Positions 33,682-42,819 of a DNA stretch of 64,000 nt are shown piece by piece; the first letter of the stretch is position 1; every line of letters starts with the position of its first letter. This stretch comes from Paramecium tetraurelia (lineage: Eukaryota): NCBI GenBank assembly GCA_000165425.1, contig CT868033.1, positions 62,001-126,000 on the forward strand. Direction: 5' to 3'. A program made the translations under genes and the position numbers. The notes beneath the pieces were generated by a model, which searched no databases, was not told the origin of the DNA, and saw only the letters and a program-made list of their open reading frames with translations.

Positions 33682-35005
33682 ATGAATAAGAGATCTGTAA
33701 CTTAGACTGAGAGAGCAAACAGTGCAGCAGCAGGCAAGACCCAAATTAGTACATAGCACAAATAAACTTTTATGACATAAGCATAGAAAACTGAGCATTT
33801 GTATAATCCCATTGATATATTTAAGAATCAATGAAATAGTTGAACAGGAGTGTCCTATCTACACGCAATATAAATAGAAGAACACTAAGTATCCAATCAT
33901 GAAGATTAAGGAATTTAAGAAGCCGAAAGCAGACCCTGTCGATCATACTGATTATATTAAGTTTAAGACTATGAAGAATAACTTTGTGAAAGAGTACAAG
34001 GAGAAATTAGATAATTATTTTGAAAACAATACGAAATATGAAAGAAGATTCTTCAAAATATATCACAGGAAAGATCAGATTTATTTTAAGCATCAGCAAT
34101 CCTCCTAAAAACACATTGAAAATCCAGAAGTTACTGACATGAGAACATACAATTAGATCCTGTAGATGAATCAGCAATAGACTCAACGAGCCAATTACAA
34201 TAAACAACAAGAAAAGAGGAGAAGAGAATTGAAGTTGGAAGAGAAGGAAGAAAAGGAGTATATTAAACTCATTATGGACAAGTTCTTGAAAGAAGAATAG
34301 AAGTATTTTGACAAATTGAGCAATTTGGAGGAGCAAGGCCAATAGATGTTTCAAGAAAAAGTACAATTGAGAAATAAATATACTCATGATTACATTAAGA
34401 ATCCATAAAGGGAATTCGTAGAGAAGAAGGATCTCATCATAAGCAAGGCTATACAAGTTCCAGATTACATGAATTCATCAGTTATAAGCAATGCTGGATC
34501 GCAAATGTAATCATAACCAACTCTAGGTTAAGCCAACATGCCTTTCTCTAGTGCATTCTCGAGTTTCCAATAACTCCCATCTTTTAAAAATGTGCTACAT
34601 CGAATGAATTCAAATGCTCTATATCAGTTGCCAGTACCATAGATTCAGGAATACGACTTAAAACCAGGAGAGCAAATCAAAAAGCCATCTACTTATCAGA
34701 CACAATAGATTTTAGATCTCTAGAGATTGATTACATTAAATGAAAAGATTGAATTCACATTTAGAATCGTCAGTGATCCTGCATTGTTAAGATTGGTGGA
34801 TACCAATGGCTGCACACTCTTGCATTAAGCAGCCTTGAAGGAAAGAAATGGGATTGCCAAGTTTCTGTTGATTAAGGGGATTGATTACAAGAAGACAGAT
34901 AACAAGGGAAGAACTGCTTTGGACATAGCGATTTCATAAAAAAACCAAAAACTTATAGATTACATCAATTAAATTAAGAAAAAAGGACTCAAAGATATAA
35001 ACTGA
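33682..35005 (+). CDS. Coiled-coil protein with C-terminal ankyrin repeats
   Basis: DTNGCTLLHQAALKERNGIAKFLLIKGIDYKKTDNKGRTALDIA. One intron near 33801-33825. Confidence 0.82.
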
Positions 35006-35068: not shown

Positions 35069-35858
35069 ATGTAAGTCGATCAACCTCTTCACACTCCAGC
35101 CAAAAAAAACTGCACCTTCAAAGTCGATGGCAGACCAGATGGAGAAGGGTATTACTTTAAGTCATATACAAGTTATTTGAACAAGAACGATTCCACATAT
35201 GGCATCATCGTCATCTAGGAATGGTGGGGTTTGAATGAATCAATGGTCAAAACCACTGACAAACTTGCTCAGAAAGGATTCCAATGCATCTCTCCAGACA
35301 TATACAGAGGAAAGGTTGCCCAAAATAGAGAAGTATCATTTCTTTGTTCTAGAATAATCCCAGGAAGCTGGCCATCTTCTAAGTGGATTAGATTGGGAAG
35401 GAGCAGTAAGAGACATTGAAGGAGCAGCAAAACATTTAAAAGAGCTTGGATGCACAAAGGTCGGTGTTACAGGGTTCTGCATGGGAGGAGCATTAGCCAT
35501 AGCATCCATCTCATTCTCCAATTCAATTGATGCATCAGCTCCTTTCTATGGAGTGTGTGATTTGAACACTTTCAAATTGGATAACATCCAAGGACCTATC
35601 TATGGTCATTTTGGAGAGAAGGACGAAATGAAAGGATTTTCATCGCCAGACGATGGTCAAAGATTAGTTGATGCTGGAAAGAAGGCAGGAAAAGATGTCA
35701 CAGTCAAGTAACTATGAATTGCTATTTCAAATAGAATTTGGCCAGGTGTAGGACACGCCTTCATGAATCAAGATAGACCAGAGGCTTATAATGTGGAAAC
35801 AGCACAATAAGCCTTAGACGAAGTGACAGCTTGGTTTAGAAAGGTATTCACATAATGA
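35069..35858 (+). CDS. Dienelactone hydrolase family (carboxymethylenebutenolidase-like)
   Basis: GIIVIQEWWGLN, SPDIYRG, nucleophile VGVTGFCMGG, GHFGEKD and GVGHAFMN (Cys-Asp-His triad). Three introns. Confidence 0.94.
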
Positions 35859-35993: not shown

Positions 35994-37841
35994 TCAATCA
36001 GAGACTATAAACTCTTCATACTCTTCGATTAATTAGTGAACATAATTCAAGATTTTGTATTCTTACAAAGCAATTTTAAAACATTGTGAAAAGTCGTAGT
36101 ATTGTGAAGAAGTGATTTTGAATCGTTTGTGAATGATTTGCAAGTCTTATTTCTTGAAAAACCTAACTCCGTAGAGCAATAAGTTTAATTTGCAAAGTAT
36201 GCTTTTGCCCATCTCCGCCTCTTCAGTTTCATATATTTTATTCAAATGCCTTTAAAAAAACTCGTACTCTAAAATTTAAACCAATTTGGGTATTAGATAT
36301 TCTTGGCCTAAACTAAGAATCTGTTGTTCTCGAGTTTCCCCTAAAATGATTGGCTTGATCTCATCCCAATCTTCAATAAAGTCTTAGATCACTAAATTAT
36401 CATCAGTCAGATCTTTGACAGACTCAACAGCCTTCTGTTTGAACCTATCAAAAATCTTCTCGTTTATTATGGCTTTTTTTGAATGAATTAAATATAAGTC
36501 TTCTCTCGTTACAGCCTTTATGTTGTAACGAAAAAAGTAATGGAAAATATTGCAGCAATGTGAAATAAATCGTTGTCGTCCTCTGCGTTGGATTAATTCA
36601 GATAACATTGCATCTTATGAACAACTGTTCACAAAATTCTCAATGAATTAATTGAAACCTAACTAATTCACATAATGTTGGAGATCATCTTTATTTATTA
36701 TTGCATATTTGTAGATGTCCATTCTTCTTAAGAGTTGTCTGATATTCTTCCAAGGTATACCTGTCTATTACAAAGTTAAAGACAAGTAATATTTAAAATT
36801 TGTAAGCTGCACATTTGTCAAAGCATACTTGACATGTCGTTCTCTCAGCACTTAACAAGAGTAATTGGGTGAATCCAAATGATATATTAATTAAAAGAAG
36901 AGTCTAGCAAATTTCAATTCCTAAGTGGCGACGTCAATATTCTCAAAATAAGGTGATAATGTGACATCTGATAGGATTTTTTTATACATGAGTTTGGTGA
37001 TGGCTTTGATGCCTTCTTCTCCTCCATAAATTTCAAATTCCAGTATTTCATTAAGTATGTAAGGCCGGACATTTTCGATCCTTTCACAACAATTGAACAT
37101 TTTTTCTGTAGAGATGTTCAATTGCATGTACTTATTAAGAAAGTGGTACTTAAACTTGAAAAAGTGAGCATGTGTTAATTACATGCCTAAATGTATGACT
37201 CTTAGACGAGGCAAGTCTAAAAACATTTATTGATCATACGCAGTAGCTAGAAGATTTCTAAATACTTATTTCACTCCAGGTTGATTTTTATTAGGAAACT
37301 TAACACTCAACATGTTATCTTTTCTTGTAATATCCAAATATATTTGGTCCACTTCAAAATTCAGTAACTCATCTGTCCCTTGAGGCTTCGGTGCTACTTT
37401 CCGCTTTCGAGACAGGTCCATCAAGTATCCCTTAATTATTTAATCCTACGATTTGATTGGTACCAATTACTATTAACTGTGAAACTTAGTTGATTTTCGA
37501 ATAACATCATTGAATAATTCGGAGTTTCGAATTAAGCAATAGTTTTTATCCTTTTATTTCCACTCGTTTTTACGGAATTGTGATAGACCTGACATGTTGC
37601 TCTTTTCACTTTCTAATGTTTTAAATCGCAAACTCAACGGAGGATCAATATGTGTGGTCTTAGATGTGGTGATGGCATAACTAAAATTTTATTCAATTTG
37701 AATGGAATTCTTCTGAGGTTGATATTTAGTAAGTAGGAACACTGGATTCTGTTTGGGCAGTCTTCTTTTTTCAGGCTGCTTTTGTCTGATAGTATACGTT
37801 TCCAAAAAATCCTTAAACGATTTCTGAGTGTCTTATATCAT
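35994..37841 (-). CDS. Protein with four tandem truncated (2/2) haemoglobin-like domains, paralog A, 615 aa, intronless
   Basis: Domain 2 reads YGGEEGIKAITKLMYKKILSDVTLSPYFENIDVATQELKF..LRERHVKYALTNVQL. The other three repeats keep the F8-His motif (LRVIHLGMQLT, LYLIHSKKAII, LQIIHKRFKIT). Confidence 0.85.
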
Positions 37842-37862
37842 AAAAACAAATAAAAATTTAAA

Positions 37863-39924
37863 TCAATCAAAAACAATATGTTTCTTGTAGTCATCAATAA
37901 CATCGAGGACCCATTATAGTTTAGATGGTTCATCCTGCATGACAGCCTTCATGGCCTAAAATAAATAGGGAATGTTAACTTATTAAAATTCAAAATACGC
38001 TTGTTCACGAATTCGTAATCTCTTGTGAAGTACTTCAATGTCTGTACGTTTGTAGAAATGCAATCCGTACAGAATCAAATTTAATTTGCATTTCAAATTG
38101 GGACCAACTTGAGATTCATTGTCCTTTGATAAAATGATAAAACTATTTTACTTCAAATACTTTGTACAGCAGTGGTCGTTGCATGATTTCATTTTCTAAT
38201 TTAGATGCAATCCGATTGACAACCGCCTAGCCTCCAAGCAATTTAATAGTAGTCTTTTTAGGTTTATTCATTAAGATGGGTGTAATTTCCTCCCAATCCT
38301 CTTCGAAATCACTTAATAAAATTGGATCATTTGTTACTTTGCTGACTGCTTGCATAGCTTTTTCCTTGAATTTCCTATAGACCTTCTCTGAAATTATGGT
38401 TTTGTTTTTATGAATAGATTCGATGTCATCATCAGTGATTGATTTCACATTGTCTCTGAAAAAATAGTGAAAGACATTTTCACAATGCGCAGTAAATCTT
38501 TACTTCCCTCTCTTCTAAACTAGATCATAGAGAATGGGTTCACTCGAGCACAGACGCACAAAACTCTCAATAAATTCTCTGTATCCTCCAGGAGCATTAT
38601 TGATGCATTCCTAAAGCGATGGCTTATTCAATATAGCAAACTTATAGGTGTCCATCTTCCTTAGCAATATTCTCAAATTTTTGTAGCTTATACCTAACTT
38701 TTGTAGAGCAGTAGATAGATAGAATTTGAAATTAGCCAATTGAACATGTGTCAATTTATACTTGACATGTCTTTCTCTGAGCACTTCAAGTGTATAGTTC
38801 GGAGACTCAGTATGATCTATTAATTATGCGAAGAGCTTAGCAAATTTAGTGGCCTACTCTTCCAATTCAATTGCCTTGAAATACGGACTTAATGTGTAAT
38901 CTTTGAATATCTTCTCGTACATGTTCTTAGCCACTTCATTAATTCCTTATTCTCCTCCGAATATTTCGAAATCACTCCTCTGATTAAGAATCAAAGGTTT
39001 AAAATTTTCCAATTTGTAACAACCCTTAAAAAGCAGCTCTACAGGAGTCTCCATCTCCATATATTGATTGATGAACAGATATTTGAATCTAATGAACTAT
39101 TCTTTCTTTATAAAGAGTGGAGCATGAATACTCCTCATCCTGAATTGATCAAGTAGTATTTCCTAAGTGTATCCTATTCCCAAAATACTTTTATATATAT
39201 CCTTCAGGTATTTGAGGTGTTTTCCATAGTACTTATTTTTTAACTGCCGATCTAAAATGACTCTATTATAAAGAGACTCAGAATGCTAATCAAGGAGCTC
39301 GTTGCTACCATATTATTTGATTTGGGTCTTAATTATCTTTTAGAATTTAGTCTCAAAAAATTTGCTTATGATTTCCGTTTATGTCTTTGGAAGTTGCTTT
39401 AATTCACGGTGTTGCTGCTACACTTTAGGTCTTCTAAGCTACTCAAGTTGCTCATGGACATTTCTAAGACTGTTGCTATGGGGATTCCTAATCTTATGTT
39501 AAAAGGGAGTAAATTTGAAATGAACCGGAGTATTGGGTAGAACAACATCGCAGATCTAGGAATCACTAATCATTGGTAAATGATAGAGCGTTTTGGTTGG
39601 TGACTACTCTTGACTTCTAAAACTCTTCACTTTATTTACAAACTCATTAATTGTGACCTGACTTTGTGAGCCATGCTTAATTATGAACTGATTCCGAGGT
39701 TCCTAGTGTAGTAAAGAACTTAACTATTTTTCAGATCTTTATTTCTTTGACACTGTTGGAGAAGTCTAAAGTGAAGATAATTATCCTGTGCATTAGAATT
39801 TTTGATCGTCCTTCATCTATTGCTATTGCATGAAATCTCTAAATGTCATGCTTTTATTATCATTCTTGAGATTCTCAGTTGGAAATTTGAATGGACATCT
39901 AGAAGAAGAGGTGACATTACTCAT
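37863..39924 (-). CDS. Protein with four tandem truncated (2/2) haemoglobin-like domains, paralog B, about 669 aa
   Basis: FGGEQGINEVAKNMYEKIFKDYTLSPYFKAIELEEQATKF..LRERHVKY, plus MRSIHAPLFI, IESIHKNKTII and LLGGQAVVNRIA..IEVLHKRLRI. Introns at 38124-38151 and probably 37956-37979. Confidence 0.85.
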
Positions 39925-41499
39925 AATAATTATAATTTATATTTATCCTGATATTTAGAAATATAGTTAATAATCTATTTGTAAGATCAGAATATCATAT
40001 TATGACATTAATTCCATAGAGAATAGAGAAGATTAATTTTTATTTTATTTTTCCTAGACCTTCTTGGTTTGGGCAAGGTTCAACTCAATATACATATTTC
40101 AACTAAATGGAACTATCATTATTGACTCCCTTATGAAAATTGTTATTTCAATACTACTCAACTAATTAATTACGACATCATAATTGATATGCTTAATTAT
40201 AACTGAACAAACTATCTAAAGTAAAGAATTTATGCTTTTTGTTAATCCAAAAGTAAAATTTGAATATAGTCATAAACGTAAACTATAACATTTATGAATA
40301 TCAAAATGGGAATTGTAAGAATTATTCTCTGTTTTCAGTCTATTTTATAACAATTAAATAGTTATTTAGCACATCTTGATATTTATTTAGTCATACAAAT
40401 CAACACTTCTAGTTTTAAATGAAATATTAGCTATGAACACCAAATTTTTCAAAGTTTCATCAGTATCTAACTGGTTATTCAATTACAATATCACCATCCA
40501 TTTTAAAGTATCAGCAACATGTATAATTTCACTTTAAAATTTGTCAAAGCCACTTACTCTTAAATATGTTCTCATTTACAATTCAAGTAATCAAATATTG
40601 TTATCTTAAAATTTATTATCCCAATATTTACAAATAAATTACTTAAGATTATTTCAATATTCTAGTAGACAACATCTAATTGATCAGATTAGAACTAACT
40701 GAAAAAAATAAACTCGATTATTTTAGTTAAACCATTAAAAACAGTCCAATAAAATGACTATACTACTAATTTTATTCTCCTGAAATGTTCAATATTATTG
40801 TTAGATTAATAATCATAATTAAGCCTTATATGGGTTAAATATAGTAATAAATTTTAGAACAATTTATGAGGTATTAATAATGGATTATCTTATGTGAAAT
40901 ATGGAGTGACTAAATAATTAAACATTTAGGTAATTTAGTCACTTTTGTATGAGACTCCTATAATAATCAAAATACAAGTTTAACTTTGTTGGTTTGAAAG
41001 GTTTTGGATTATATGTCATTATTTTTCACATATTACCAAATATGTTTATACTTTTAAGATATTGGAGTTTCTATTGTTAATAAATTATTGTATAATCAAG
41101 TGTATTTAGGCTTCTTTCATTTCATTAAATAGAGAAATTAGCAAGTATGATAATCTGAGAATTCATATGAGTAGATAATTTATTCAAAGTAAAATATAAT
41201 TGAAATTAGGGATTTAGAAAATACTCCTGAATTTATTGGAATATTTTCTATTTGTATTGATTGGCCGAAATAGAGAAGTAGTAATTAGGGTTTCTGTAAA
41301 AAAGTCTTATTTTATAAATATATTAAATATAAAAATTTAGCTTAATTACGAATAATTTCATTGTAATTAAAATCGAAAATAATTATTAAGATTTTTATTT
41401 TAAAATTCCTTATAAAGTAATTAATGTAAAATAATTTTAATTTTCAAAATAATTAGTTTATAATAAGTCATAATATATATAAAACTATTCACAGTAGTG

Positions 41500-42819
41500 T
41501 CAATTTAGTCTAAAGGGGTTCACATTTTAATTTGAAACGAAATCTGTTGCAGGAGTGTGAACTTATAACTTGGCTTATTTTGGGGATAGATAAAAAAACA
41601 ATTAAGCTCTAAATTAGTAAGATTTATATACTTCTAAGACAATTGGTCGGTTTCATCAGTGAAGAAAGGGTGACCAATGCAGTCTTGAGCATTGTATCTT
41701 AGTTTAGGGTCTAGACTTAGCATTTGATGCAATAAATCTTAGGCATTTTTATTCTAAATGTGAGAACTGATTCTAATGTCAGCTGCTTAATTTTGCCAAT
41801 AATCCTCATAGATCGGTCTACCAACAAGTAATTTGTGGAATACAGCTCCGGCACTGAAAATGTCTATTTTTTCAGTGACTCTAGATGAGGAAAATACTTC
41901 TGGAGCCATGTATCCGACGGTGCCAGCCCTGGAGTTGGAAGTGTTGTTGATTGCCGAGAGTCCTAGATCGATGATTTTGATTTGTAGAGGGTTAAAAGAA
42001 GCAATCATTATGTTGTCATATTTAATATCTCGATGTATAATTTTTAATTGATGCAAGTGATTTAAACCTATTTTTTGAAATATTCAATATGTTATACCTT
42101 CTAAAATTTGTTGCATCACTTCTTAGATGATGCTCATCGGTATTTTAAAATTGTACCTCTTCTGAAGGTCTAATAGCGTGCCATGGGATAGATAATCCAT
42201 TGCAATGTAGCAATGCATATTGTCAATGTAATATGAGTTGAAGCCAAGTACGTTCGGGTGAGGATTCTCCCGAAGAAGCTTAAGGGCTAGTAATTCATCA
42301 GAAGACTAAATAGTAATGGTTACTTACAACTGGATAATCAATGCGCTTTAGAACTTAAAACTAATTTTCTTGTTTACCAAGGATTACCTAAAAATGGATT
42401 TTTAAACAGTGATACCTAACTTTTCGAGTTGTCTCTGATGTGTTTAATATATTTGTAATCCGATTCCCAGTTTGCAAAACCAATAGACCCGCTTAATATA
42501 CTTTTTAGCTGGCTGAGCTGGTCATTGCTGGCACTGAAAGTGTACTTCTTGGCATTCTGTTTGCATAGGCTGAAACTTTCAATGTCTCTAGAATGACTAT
42601 GTCGAATGAAGATAAAATTTACTGAGAGTAATCCCAATGTACAACATATTGTGTAGTTTAAAAATCGAATTCTTTGTCGATTTTTTCACTTTTGCTGGTT
42701 TTTCTCAATCCTGTCAAAGAGAGTCGGTCTTGATAAACCGTTATTGTAACAGTACATCCGTTTCTAATGATTTACGATAGCTTTGTAGAAAATATATAAG
42801 ACTGAGAACAATTTTTCAT
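41500..42819 (-). CDS. Ser/Thr protein kinase (CAMK-like) with N-terminal extension
   Basis: HPNVLGF, IIHRDIKYDNIM, IIDLGLS, GTVGYMAPE, DIFSAG, DPKLRYNAQDCIGHPFF. Several introns. Confidence 0.9.

What the first reader, a model, noticed from the sequence alone, without database searches (positions are those of the whole stretch)
35994..39924. Tandem pair of four-domain truncated-haemoglobin genes: candidate multi-haem gas/redox system
Seen in the sequence: each gene has a long low-complexity N-terminus followed by four ~115-aa repeats. Domain 2 follows the group I 2/2 globin pattern known from single-domain ciliate haemoglobin: GG motif, Tyr B10, Phe CD1 in SPYF, Gln E7, Lys E10 and proximal His F8 in LRERH. 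The other domains are diverged but keep a His at the F8-like position with similar spacing. Each domain resembles its counterpart in the other gene more than its neighbours, so the four-domain design predates the gene duplication. The ciliate globins I know are ~120-aa single domains. Inference: a tetra-globin with four different distal pockets could be an O2/NO sensor, a store or a redox scaffold. I cannot confirm it is undescribed.
Basis: partly seen in the sequence, partly recalled or inferred. Interest (0 to 1): 0.85.

Follow-up and report, generated by a model that had tools for sequence, protein, structure and literature searches.

The report
Tandem four-domain truncated haemoglobin genes
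Two neighbouring Paramecium genes each encode a protein with a floppy front end followed by four truncated-haemoglobin domains, three of them too diverged for routine annotation to see; proteins built from several such domains have been noted before in protists but never studied at the bench.

Summary
The window is Paramecium (aurelia complex) DNA. Gene 1 (35994-37841, minus strand, 615 aa) and gene 2 (37863-39924, minus strand, two introns, 669 aa) each have a low-complexity N-terminus and four 110-120-aa domains.

- **Domain 2:** a canonical group I truncated haemoglobin (Pfam PF01152, E about 6e-8; VIA Z 14.2).
- **Domains 1, 3 and 4:** invisible to Pfam and to single-sequence searches. Profiles built from four Paramecium paralogue groups match a truncated-haemoglobin profile at E 1.3e-18, 5.4e-8 and 1.1e-9, against 0.26-0.68 for reversed controls.
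- **Domain 3 alone:** folds confidently (pLDDT 90.6), and its best matches among 48,161 solved chains are group I truncated haemoglobins (Z 12.7).
- **Histidines:** the proximal His F8 of each domain is invariant in 21 of 21 relatives. Domain 3 has a second invariant His at E10, the position of the distal iron ligand of cyanobacterial GlbN.
- **Order of events:** the four-domain design predates the gene duplication.

Haem binding and function are untested. Multi-unit truncated haemoglobins are already in print (Chlamydomonas THB5; an in-silico survey that covers ciliates), so this is a new member of a known kind. Two side observations: only 21 in-frame bases separate the two genes, and a P. 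sonneborni paralogue is annotated as one eight-domain protein.

The parts
35994..37841 (-). Gene 1, complete CDS without introns, 615 aa (stop TGA at 35994-35996)
   Evidence: ORF and translation under code 6. Orthologues of 615-616 aa at 79-95% identity in P. pentaurelia, P. primaurelia and P. sonneborni. Thin poly(A) RNA cover.
37380..37841 (-). Gene 1 N-terminal low-complexity region (residues 1-154; K 14%, Q 11%, S 9%)
   Evidence: No family match.
37047..37379 (-). Gene 1 domain 1 (residues 155-265): diverged truncated-haemoglobin domain with Tyr B10, Phe CD1, Val E7 and His F8 (H217, 37191-37193)
   Evidence: hhalign against a truncated-haemoglobin profile: probability 99.1, E 1.3e-18, 110 columns. 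Own HMM: 1.1e-8 at Z = 1e5. Pfam and phmmer on this domain alone are negative.
36687..37046 (-). Gene 1 domain 2 (residues 266-385): canonical group I truncated haemoglobin with GG, Tyr B10, Phe CD1, Gln E7, Lys E10 and His F8 (H336, 36834-36836)
   Evidence: Pfam PF01152, E 5.5e-8. PDB phmmer: 1uvx and 1dlw at about 1.5e-5. VIA Z 14.2 to 6cii over model residues 111-235.
36342..36686 (-). Gene 1 domain 3 (residues 386-500): diverged truncated-haemoglobin domain with Val B10, Ile CD1, Phe E7, invariant His E10 (H428, 36558-36560) and His F8 (H453, 36483-36485)
   Evidence: AF2 pLDDT 90.6. VIA wide search: top hit 6bme_B, Z 12.7, rmsd 2.9, 114 residues aligned. hhalign E 5.4e-8. Domain-3-only profile against PDB: 3aq7 at 3.5e-6, GlbN 1mwb at 4.4e-5, with H428 aligned to E10.
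35997..36341 (-). Gene 1 domain 4 (residues 501-615): diverged truncated-haemoglobin-like domain with Glu B10, Tyr CD1 and His F8 (H571, 36129-36131), about 3 residues shorter around helix E
   Evidence: hhalign probability 96.4, E 1.1e-9, 108 columns. Own HMM on domain 4 of paralogues: 3e-7 (P0021) and 4.5e-4 (P0012). Fold not verified: pLDDT about 40 in the 466-residue model.
37842..37862 (-). 21-nt A+T-rich spacer between the gene 2 stop and the gene 1 ATG; the two ORFs are in the same frame
37863..39924 (-). Gene 2, 669 aa. Exons 38152-39924, 37980-38123 and 37863-37955; introns 38124-38151 (28 nt) and 37956-37979 (24 nt)
   Evidence: The spliced product is 96% identical over its full length to P0012. 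RNA cover stops between 39931 and 39932, which favours the ATG at 39924 over the one at 40095.
39310..39924 (-). Gene 2 N-terminal low-complexity region (residues 1-205), with a Cys-Pro-Phe motif at residues 10-12 (39889-39897)
38980..39309 (-). Gene 2 domain 1 (residues 206-315)
   Evidence: Own HMM on the 96%-identical P0012: 3.8e-3.
38620..38979 (-). Gene 2 domain 2 (residues 316-435), canonical group I truncated haemoglobin
   Evidence: Pfam PF01152, E 6.4e-8, residues 319-432.
38269..38619 (-). Gene 2 domain 3 (residues 436-552), with the same two invariant histidines
37866..38268 (-). Gene 2 domain 4 (residues 553-669), interrupted by both introns; keeps the LGG motif

Best explanation
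SHOWN. The two genes are ancient tandem paralogues in a Paramecium aurelia-complex genome. Each encodes a soluble protein with a disordered, K/Q/S-rich N-terminus and four consecutive group I (N-type) truncated-haemoglobin domains. Domain 2 keeps the classical O2-stabilising pocket (Tyr B10, Gln E7, Lys E10). Domains 1, 3 and 4 have diverged pockets, but each keeps the proximal His F8. Domain 3 also keeps an invariant His at E10. Both genes are transcribed at a low level.

INFERRED. Each domain binds one haem b through its F8 His, giving four chemically different haems per chain.
- Domain 2 binds O2 and can oxidise NO to nitrate, as single-domain ciliate and mycobacterial truncated haemoglobins do.
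- Domain 3 is an endogenously six-coordinate bis-histidyl haem like cyanobacterial GlbN. This state favours electron transfer over gas binding, so it may help return the ferric domain-2 haem to the ferrous state.
- The roles of domains 1 and 4 are open.

Overall I read the proteins as multi-haem NO/O2 redox proteins, not oxygen carriers. My confidence that they are four-domain truncated haemoglobins is about 0.9. My confidence that all four domains bind haem is about 0.5, and in the redox-relay mechanism about 0.2-0.3. The figure given is a blend of these.
For: Organism. All 14 close homologues are from Paramecium. The genes use code 6 and have 24-28-nt introns.

Domain 2. Pfam PF01152 above its cut-off in both genes. 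PDB phmmer hits to ciliate and algal group I haemoglobins. Foldseek: 1dly at 7.6e-4. VIA Z 14.2.

Domains 1, 3 and 4. hhalign of 17-sequence Paramecium domain profiles against a profile of 17 single-domain truncated haemoglobins gives E 1.3e-18, 5.4e-8 and 1.1e-9 over 108-112 columns. Reversed controls give 0.26-0.68.

Paralogues and unnamed relatives. Domain 1 of P0021 reaches Pfam by itself at residues 159-239, E 1.5e-10. All four domains of the unnamed collinear proteins P0091, P0101 and P0056 score 1e-6 to 1e-20 with my HMM.

Domain 3 fold. pLDDT 90.6, pTM 0.83. In a search of 48,161 chains the seven best truncated-haemoglobin rows score Z 12.7-10.8, and all 50 listed rows are globin-fold proteins.

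Domain-3-only profile against PDB. 26 of 27 hits are globins, and 8 of them have E <= 1e-3.

Haem ligands. Of 16 invariant non-Met columns in 21 sequences, 5 are His: the four F8 positions plus H428. H428 aligns to Q49 (E10) of T. pyriformis haemoglobin and to the conserved His of Synechocystis GlbN.

Literature. E10 can ligate iron and give a six-coordinate complex that facilitates electron transfer. GlbN uses a distal His and THB1 a distal Lys (PMC11904497 passages; PMC7082302 passages).

Transcription. Three poly(A) RNA runs cover 36044-39931 in one orientation only.
Against: - No haem-binding data exist.
- Pfam at E <= 1 finds no globin in isolated domains 1, 3 or 4 of gene 1 (0 of 3). phmmer against PDB finds none either (0 of 3).
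- Shallow profiles from gene-1 and gene-2 types alone gave only D1-D2 at E 0.0019. The other five pairs gave 0.065-0.65.
- Foldseek on the domain-3 model has no match at E <= 0.001; the best is 0.16.
- The tool warns that helical models can reach Z about 13 by chance.
- Domain 4 was modelled at pLDDT about 40. It has Glu at B10 and a 3-residue deletion near helix E.
- Domains 3 and 4 lack Tyr B10, and domain 3 lacks Phe CD1.
- The register of H428 could be off by one, E10 versus E11.
- My single-domain reference set was drawn from hits of the family profile, chiefly to domain 2. It is independent of domains 1, 3 and 4 but was not curated.
- RNA cover is thin (depth about 0-6), so neither intron is confirmed by reads.
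Confidence: 0.6

Rival explanations
1. Only domain 2 is a working haemoglobin. Domains 1, 3 and 4 are haem-free relics of the globin fold that serve as scaffold, oligomerisation or regulatory modules.
For: Canonical distal residues are lost in domains 3 and 4. Pfam and phmmer do not see these domains. Domain 4 is poorly modelled. Haem-less globin folds exist, for example the RsbR N-domain among the structural neighbours.
Against: The F8 His is invariant in all four domains in 21 of 21 and 17 of 17 sequences, while only 16 non-Met columns in all are invariant. Domain 3 keeps a second invariant His at a known ligand position.
Confidence: 0.25
2. The protein is a gas or redox sensor, not an enzyme. 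The ligand or redox state of the haems changes the conformation of the chain, and the signal passes through the disordered N-terminus (with its Cys-Pro motif in gene 2) or through partner proteins.
For: Both genes have a long conserved disordered N-terminus. A Cys-Pro(-Phe) motif is kept in most family members. Six-coordinate globins undergo large ligand-linked changes (PMC11904497 passage). A metagenomic relative carries ankyrin repeats after three globin domains (P0041).
Against: No output domain is present in either gene. Gene 1 lacks the Cys-Pro motif. No partner is known, and the neighbouring genes are unrelated.
Confidence: 0.12
3. The two ORFs form one expression unit. Read-through of the single TGA, or a shared transcript, gives some eight-domain product of about 1290 aa.
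For: Only 21 nt separate the stop from the ATG, and the ORFs are in frame. That leaves no room for a separate 3' end and promoter. A P. sonneborni paralogue is annotated as one 1307-aa protein with a gene-2-like half and a gene-1-like half. RNA depth does not drop at the junction.
Against: Being in frame has a one-in-three chance. Orthologues in four species are annotated as separate proteins of 615 aa and 667-669 aa. I saw no intron that would remove the stop while keeping the frame (reading). The fused model may be an annotation artefact. Gene 1 depth is about half that of gene 2.
Confidence: 0.07
4. Domains 3 and 4 are unrelated helical segments that resemble globins by chance.
For: Single-sequence searches fail. 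Shallow profiles fail. The Foldseek E-value is weak.
Against: hhalign gives 5.4e-8 and 1.1e-9 against 0.26-0.27 for reversed controls. The domain-3 profile hits 26 globins among 27 PDB hits. The unbiased structure search lists only globin-fold proteins. The His F8 and Asp B16 positions are conserved.
Confidence: 0.03

Closest known systems
Single-domain group I (N-type) truncated haemoglobins of ciliates: Paramecium caudatum (PDB 1dlw) and Tetrahymena pyriformis (3aq5)
   Same: Domain 2 aligns over its whole length with GG, Tyr B10, Phe CD1, Gln E7, Lys E10 and His F8 and shares the 2/2 fold (Z 12.9-14.0). Domain 3 shares the fold (Z 11.4 to 3aq5).
   Different: Those proteins have 116-121 aa and one domain. 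Here four domains are joined behind a disordered head of 154-205 aa, and three of the four pockets lack the Tyr B10 / Gln E7 network.
[quoted passage not shown] 2017 (IUBMB Life 69:479)
   Same: They have tandem truncated-haemoglobin domains in one chain, are eukaryotic and group I, and are uncharacterised biochemically. My search found many more: 12 Pfam repeats in Lacrimia lanifica, 10 in Perkinsus olseni, 5 in Astrephomene and 3 in the chytrid Globomyces.
   Different: In those proteins every repeat is seen by Pfam. Here only one of four is, and each position has its own conserved pocket. I could not read Hade et al.; I saw only its title in reference lists and one describing sentence in PMC7475203. 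I therefore cannot say whether these Paramecium proteins are on its list. For THB5 I saw only one sentence in PMC7082302.
Endogenously six-coordinate truncated haemoglobins: cyanobacterial GlbN (His E10 / His F8; PDB 1mwb, 2hz1, 2ksc) and Chlamydomonas THB1 (Lys E10)
   Same: The invariant H428 of domain 3 aligns with the distal His of Synechocystis GlbN. The domain-3 profile hits GlbN at 4.4e-5. Domain 2 has Lys at E10, as THB1 does.
   Different: Coordination is not measured here. Domain 3 lacks Tyr B10. That the GlbN ligand pair is His46/His70 is recalled; PMC11904497 gives only 'distal histidine (GlbN)' and the role of E10.
Unnamed four-domain truncated-haemoglobin proteins from environmental assemblies (P0056, P0091, P0101 and ten further clusters)
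   Same: They have the same layout: a disordered head with a Cys-Pro-Phe motif, then four domains, collinear in full-length alignment, with all five His columns conserved.
   Different: All four of their domains are recognisable truncated haemoglobins, and their most canonical domain is the fourth, not the second. Neither the domain tree nor the hhalign matrix shows position-by-position orthology with Paramecium. A shared four-domain ancestor is therefore not shown.

Membership tests
Group I truncated haemoglobin (Pfam PF01152 Bac_globin) | Sequence match to the family model above the curated cut-off | tested here: met
   Met for domain 2 of both genes: 33.5 and 33.3 bits against a cut-off of 21. 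Isolated domains 1, 3 and 4 of gene 1 give no PF01152 hit at E <= 1. They are linked to the family only by profile-profile comparison (E 1.3e-18, 5.4e-8, 1.1e-9). For domain 3 there is also a six-sequence profile against PDB (3.5e-6).
Group I truncated haemoglobin | 2-on-2 alpha-helical globin fold | tested here: met
   Domain 2: Z 14.2, rmsd 2.9, 120 residues aligned to 6cii. Domain 3 folded alone: pLDDT 90.6, Z 12.7, rmsd 2.9, 114 residues aligned to 6bme_B, with group I truncated haemoglobins at the top of 48,161 chains. These are predicted structures, not solved ones.
Group I truncated haemoglobin | 2-on-2 fold for domains 1 and 4 specifically | tested here: inconclusive
In the 466-residue model domain 1 has pLDDT 60-87 and a matching helix pattern, while domain 4 has about 40. 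The structure searches on that model tested only residues 114-236.
Group I truncated haemoglobin | Proximal His at F8 | tested here: met
   H217, H336, H453 and H571 are invariant in 21 of 21 sequences and 17 of 17. They align to the F8 His of the reference profile.
Group I truncated haemoglobin | Distal hydrogen-bond network (Tyr B10 with Gln E7 and/or E11) and GG motifs | tested here: met
   Met in domain 2 only. Domain 1 keeps Tyr B10 and Phe CD1 but has Val at E7. Domain 3 has Val B10, Ile CD1 and Phe E7. Domain 4 has Glu B10. This network varies within the family, so its absence does not exclude membership.
Group I truncated haemoglobin | Binds haem b | not testable with these tools
   No experiment was possible. 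This is inferred from the conserved ligands only.
Multi-unit truncated haemoglobins (THB5 type; Hade et al. 2017) | Two or more truncated-haemoglobin domains in tandem in one polypeptide | tested here: met
   Four collinear domains per gene.
Endogenously six-coordinate truncated haemoglobin (GlbN type), for domain 3 | An iron-ligating side chain (His) at E10 | tested here: met
   H428 aligns to E10 of 3aq5 (Q49; E7 = Q46 and E11 = Q50 follow from the PDB mutant titles and the paper title seen). It also aligns to the GlbN His. H428 lies 25 residues before F8, against 24 for E10 in 3aq5 and in the GlbN sequence. A one-residue register error cannot be excluded.
Endogenously six-coordinate truncated haemoglobin (GlbN type), for domain 3 | Bis-histidyl coordination seen by spectroscopy or in a structure | not testable with these tools
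   Needs UV-visible, EPR or NMR spectra of the recombinant domain.

The most novel reading that the evidence does not exclude
The chain is a self-contained haem relay. The bis-histidyl haem of domain 3, and perhaps the haems of domains 1 and 4, pass electrons to the O2/NO-reactive haem of domain 2, so the protein acts as an NO dioxygenase that carries part of its own reductase path. This would be a solution distinct from the flavohaemoglobin fusion. In addition, the tandem pair may at times be made as one eight-haem chain, either by read-through of the single in-frame TGA or as a true fusion like the 1307-aa P. sonneborni paralogue.
Probability: 0.12. Interest if true: 0.7.

Novelty: new member of a known kind. 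Interest (0 to 1): 0.45.

Why it matters
As far as my searches show, no multi-unit truncated haemoglobin has been characterised biochemically. The papers I saw describe them only as in-silico findings.

This Paramecium family is a tractable case. Each of the four positions has its own pocket, conserved through several rounds of gene and genome duplication, which argues that each has its own job. One position carries the ligand pair of a six-coordinate, electron-transfer-prone globin.

There is also a practical point for annotation. Three of the four globin domains, and all four in paralogue P0016, are invisible to Pfam. Globin counts in ciliate genomes are therefore underestimates.

If the domains cooperate in redox chemistry, the family would show how a globin can be kept reduced without a fused flavin reductase.

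Tried and rejected
- **Shallow profiles.** Domain profiles built from gene-1 and gene-2 types only gave no significant link except D1-D2 at 0.0019. Adding paralogue groups P0016 and P0021 made the links significant.
- **Single-sequence searches.** Pfam and phmmer on isolated domains 1, 3 and 4 found no globin. Domain 4 of paralogue P0021 against PDB put five ciliate truncated haemoglobins on top, but only at E 0.2-0.45.
- **Searches on the 466-residue model.** Foldseek and VIA tested only domain 2.
- **Positional orthology with the environmental four-domain clade.** The hhalign matrix has no dominant diagonal. The FastTree domain tree, whose support values were not printed, does not pair like positions. 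I leave this open.
- **ESM Atlas.** The look-up of domain 4 was not accepted for a protein read under code 6. Nothing was learned and I did not pursue it.
- **Whole genome.** None is held for this window, so I could not count globin genes.
- **RNA evidence.** No RNA holder was listed in the run index. The three raw poly(A) runs I laid gave too few reads to list splice joints or transcript ends, so the introns and the 21-nt junction remain unconfirmed by RNA.
- **Earlier notes of this scan.** Nothing near this place or like this sequence. A word search returned only bacterial truncated-globin oddities.
- **Literature.** Hade et al. 2017 is not held. A search for the GlbN His46/His70 ligands found no open paper stating them.
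- **A stop-removing intron.** I looked by eye at the gene 2 / gene 1 junction for an intron that would remove the TGA while keeping the frame and found none (sequence).


Full report
**What is there**

The window has low G+C (0.26-0.37). Long ORFs appear only under the ciliate code.

- **Gene 1:** 35994-37841 on the minus strand, 615 codons, with 25 in-frame TAA/TAG read as Gln.
- **Gene 2:** ends at 37863, 21 nt upstream of the gene 1 ATG. It starts most likely at 39924. Two small introns interrupt it, at 38124-38151 (28 nt) and 37956-37979 (24 nt). I inferred them from the sequence and from alignment with orthologues. The check: the spliced 669-aa product is 96% identical over residues 1-669 to a P. 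primaurelia protein.
- **Organism:** all 14 close homologues are unnamed or uncharacterised proteins of P. pentaurelia, P. primaurelia, P. sonneborni, P. tetraurelia and P. octaurelia. The gene-1 type is 79-95% identical and the gene-2 type 44-47% identical to gene 1.
- **Transcription:** three poly(A) RNA runs give thin, single-orientation cover from 36044 to 39931 and none beyond. Both genes are therefore transcribed at a low level. The upstream in-frame ATG at 40095 is unlikely to be used.

**Domain 2**

Pfam sees exactly one Bac_globin (PF01152) domain in each protein, at E 5.5e-8 and 6.4e-8 and above the cut-off. phmmer against solved structures aligns residues 269-371 of gene 1 to the group I truncated haemoglobins of Chlamydomonas, Paramecium caudatum and Tetrahymena at E about 1.5e-5 to 1.4e-4.

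In a 466-residue AlphaFold model (pLDDT 62.9) this domain matches truncated haemoglobins at Z 14.2-12.5.

**Domains 1, 3 and 4**

Routine tools do not see these domains.
- Pfam at E <= 1 finds no globin family on any of the three isolated domains.
- phmmer against PDB finds no globin on any of them.
- Profiles built only from the two gene types gave D1-D2 at E 0.0019 and nothing else.

A profile search of 1.84 billion representatives changed the picture. It returned 96 proteins with E <= 0.001, in three groups.
- **Further Paramecium paralogue groups:** P0016 (644 aa), P0021 (630 aa) and P0045 (494 aa).
- **Unnamed collinear four-domain proteins:** P0091, P0101 and P0056.
- **Many-repeat proteins from other protists:** 12 Pfam globin repeats in the diplonemid Lacrimia, 10 in Perkinsus olseni, 5 in the alga Astrephomene and 3 in a chytrid.

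Domain profiles built from 17 Paramecium sequences of four paralogue groups were compared by hhalign with a profile of 17 single-domain truncated haemoglobins.

| Domain | Probability | E-value |
|---|---|---|
| 1 | 99.1 | 1.3e-18 |
| 2 | 99.7 | 1.5e-26 |
| 3 | 94.8 | 5.4e-8 |
| 4 | 96.4 | 1.1e-9 |

Each match runs over 108-115 columns. The same profiles reversed give E 0.26-0.68.

An HMM of the single-domain set, with Z set to 1e5, scores as follows.
- Domain 1 of gene 1: 1.1e-8.
- Domain 4 of P0021: 3e-7.
- All four domains of P0016: between 2.4e-4 and 5.8e-12.
- Domains 3 and 4 of gene 1 alone: only 0.76 and 0.36.

Pfam itself detects domain 1 in P0021 at residues 159-239, E 1.5e-10.

**Domain 3**

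I folded domain 3, the weakest by sequence, on its own with a 21-row alignment. The model has pLDDT 90.6 and pTM 0.83.

An alignment of this model to each of 48,161 representative solved chains put group I truncated haemoglobins on top.
- THB4 (6bme_B): Z 12.7, rmsd 2.9, 114 residues aligned.
- C. eugametos (1dly): Z 11.8.
- T. pyriformis (3aq5): Z 11.4.

All 50 listed rows are globin-fold proteins. Foldseek ranks the same proteins first with TM 0.69-0.74, but its E-values are weak; the best is 0.16.

A six-sequence profile of domain 3 alone was then searched against PDB sequences. Of 27 hits, 26 are globins, and 8 of them have E <= 1e-3. The best are T. pyriformis haemoglobin at 3.5e-6 and Synechocystis cyanoglobin at 4.4e-5.

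Domain 4 was poorly modelled in the long model, at pLDDT about 40. Its fold therefore rests on sequence profiles only.

**Haem ligands**

In a 21-sequence full-length alignment only 16 non-Met columns are invariant. Five of them are histidines.
- Four are the F8 position of each domain: H217, H336, H453 and H571.
- The fifth is H428 in helix E of domain 3.

The same five columns are His in 17 of 17 sequences of a second alignment that includes more unnamed relatives.

The alignment places H428 opposite Q49 of T. pyriformis haemoglobin. In that protein E7 is Q46 and E11 is Q50. I take this from the PDB mutant titles and from the title of the Igarashi et al. paper seen. H428 is therefore at E10. 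It also lies opposite a conserved His of Synechocystis GlbN.

Passages of PMC11904497 state that the E10 residue may coordinate the iron and give a six-coordinate complex that facilitates electron transfer. They also state that GlbN uses a distal histidine and THB1 a distal lysine. That the GlbN pair is His46/His70 is my recollection.

Pockets read from the hhalign alignments:

| Domain | B10 | CD1 | E7 | E10 |
|---|---|---|---|---|
| 1 | Tyr | Phe | Val | Val |
| 2 | Tyr | Phe | Gln | Lys |
| 3 | Val | Ile | Phe | His |
| 4 | Glu | Tyr | uncertain | uncertain |

Domain 4 also has a 3-residue deletion near helix E.

**History**

Same-position identity between gene 1 and the gene-2 type is 32.7, 60.0, 48.7 and 36.5% for domains 1 to 4. 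Off-diagonal values are 18.6-31.9%. In a domain tree each position forms one clade across four Paramecium paralogue groups.

The unnamed four-domain clade comprises 13 clusters, none of them named. It is collinear with the Paramecium proteins. Neither the hhalign matrix nor the tree pairs like positions between the two clades, so a common four-domain ancestor is not shown.

**How it probably works**

The shown parts are the architecture, the ligand residues, the domain-3 fold and transcription.

The inferred parts are these.
- There is one haem b per domain.
- Domain 2 is the O2- and NO-reactive site.
- Domain 3 is a bis-histidyl, electron-transfer-prone haem.

The main rival is that only domain 2 binds haem. 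The invariant F8 histidines argue against that rival. Sensor and single-expression-unit readings remain possible.

**Comparison with what is known**

Passages of PMC7475203 say that multi-unit T globins were identified in silico (Hade et al. 2017) and that T1 chimeric and multi-unit sequences were detected in ciliated protozoa. [quoted passage not shown]

I could not read Hade et al.. I cannot say whether these Paramecium accessions are listed there. Its supplementary material, if any, might bear on that.

My searches found no bench study of any multi-unit truncated haemoglobin. I therefore rate this as a new member of a known kind. Three features seem undescribed in what I could read: cryptic domains that annotation misses, position-specific pockets, and a GlbN-like ligand pair in domain 3.

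**Verdict**

Function is open, novelty is moderate, and I score interest at 0.45.

Noticed in passing
window 37839-37865 (-): The TGA stop of gene 2 and the ATG of gene 1 are only 21 nt apart, and the two ORFs are in the same frame. This leaves no room for a separate 3' end and promoter. RNA depth does not drop across the junction, but cover is too thin to decide.
   Followed up: partly
P0148 (P. sonneborni, 1307 aa), not in the window: A third, older paralogous locus is annotated as a single protein. It has a gene-2-like half (residues 1-652, 53% identical), a linker of about 115 aa and a gene-1-like half (residues 768-1307, 55% identical), which makes eight globin domains. It could be a real fusion or a merged gene model.
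   Followed up: partly
window 39889-39897 (-), gene 2 residues 10-12: A Cys-Pro-Phe motif lies in the disordered N-terminus. The same CPF also occurs, at varying positions before domain 1, in P0008, P0012, P0016, P0091, P0101, P0056 and P0148, and P0021 has CPI. Gene-1-type proteins and P0045 lack it. It resembles the Cys-Pro haem-regulatory motif (recalled, not tested).
   Followed up: partly
P0008 and P0011 (P. tetraurelia orthologues of gene 2): UniRef names them 'HECT domain-containing protein'. The Pfam scan of gene 2 finds only Bac_globin and no HECT domain, so the name looks like an annotation error.
   Followed up: partly
P0016, P0045 (Paramecium paralogues): Two further paralogue groups get no Pfam family at all at E <= 0.01. 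With my truncated-haemoglobin HMM, all four domains of P0016 score 2.4e-4 to 5.8e-12. Globin counts for Paramecium that rest on Pfam are therefore too low.
   Followed up: partly
window 33899-35005 (+), 35069-35717 (+), 41520-42008 (-): The neighbours are an ankyrin-repeat protein, a dienelactone hydrolase (split by a small intron or frame change near 35240-35420) and a protein kinase fragment. None has an evident link to the globin genes.
   Followed up: no
P0041 (unnamed, 673 aa): A metagenomic relative joins three truncated-haemoglobin domains to C-terminal ankyrin repeats. This is a chimeric multi-unit form.
   Followed up: no
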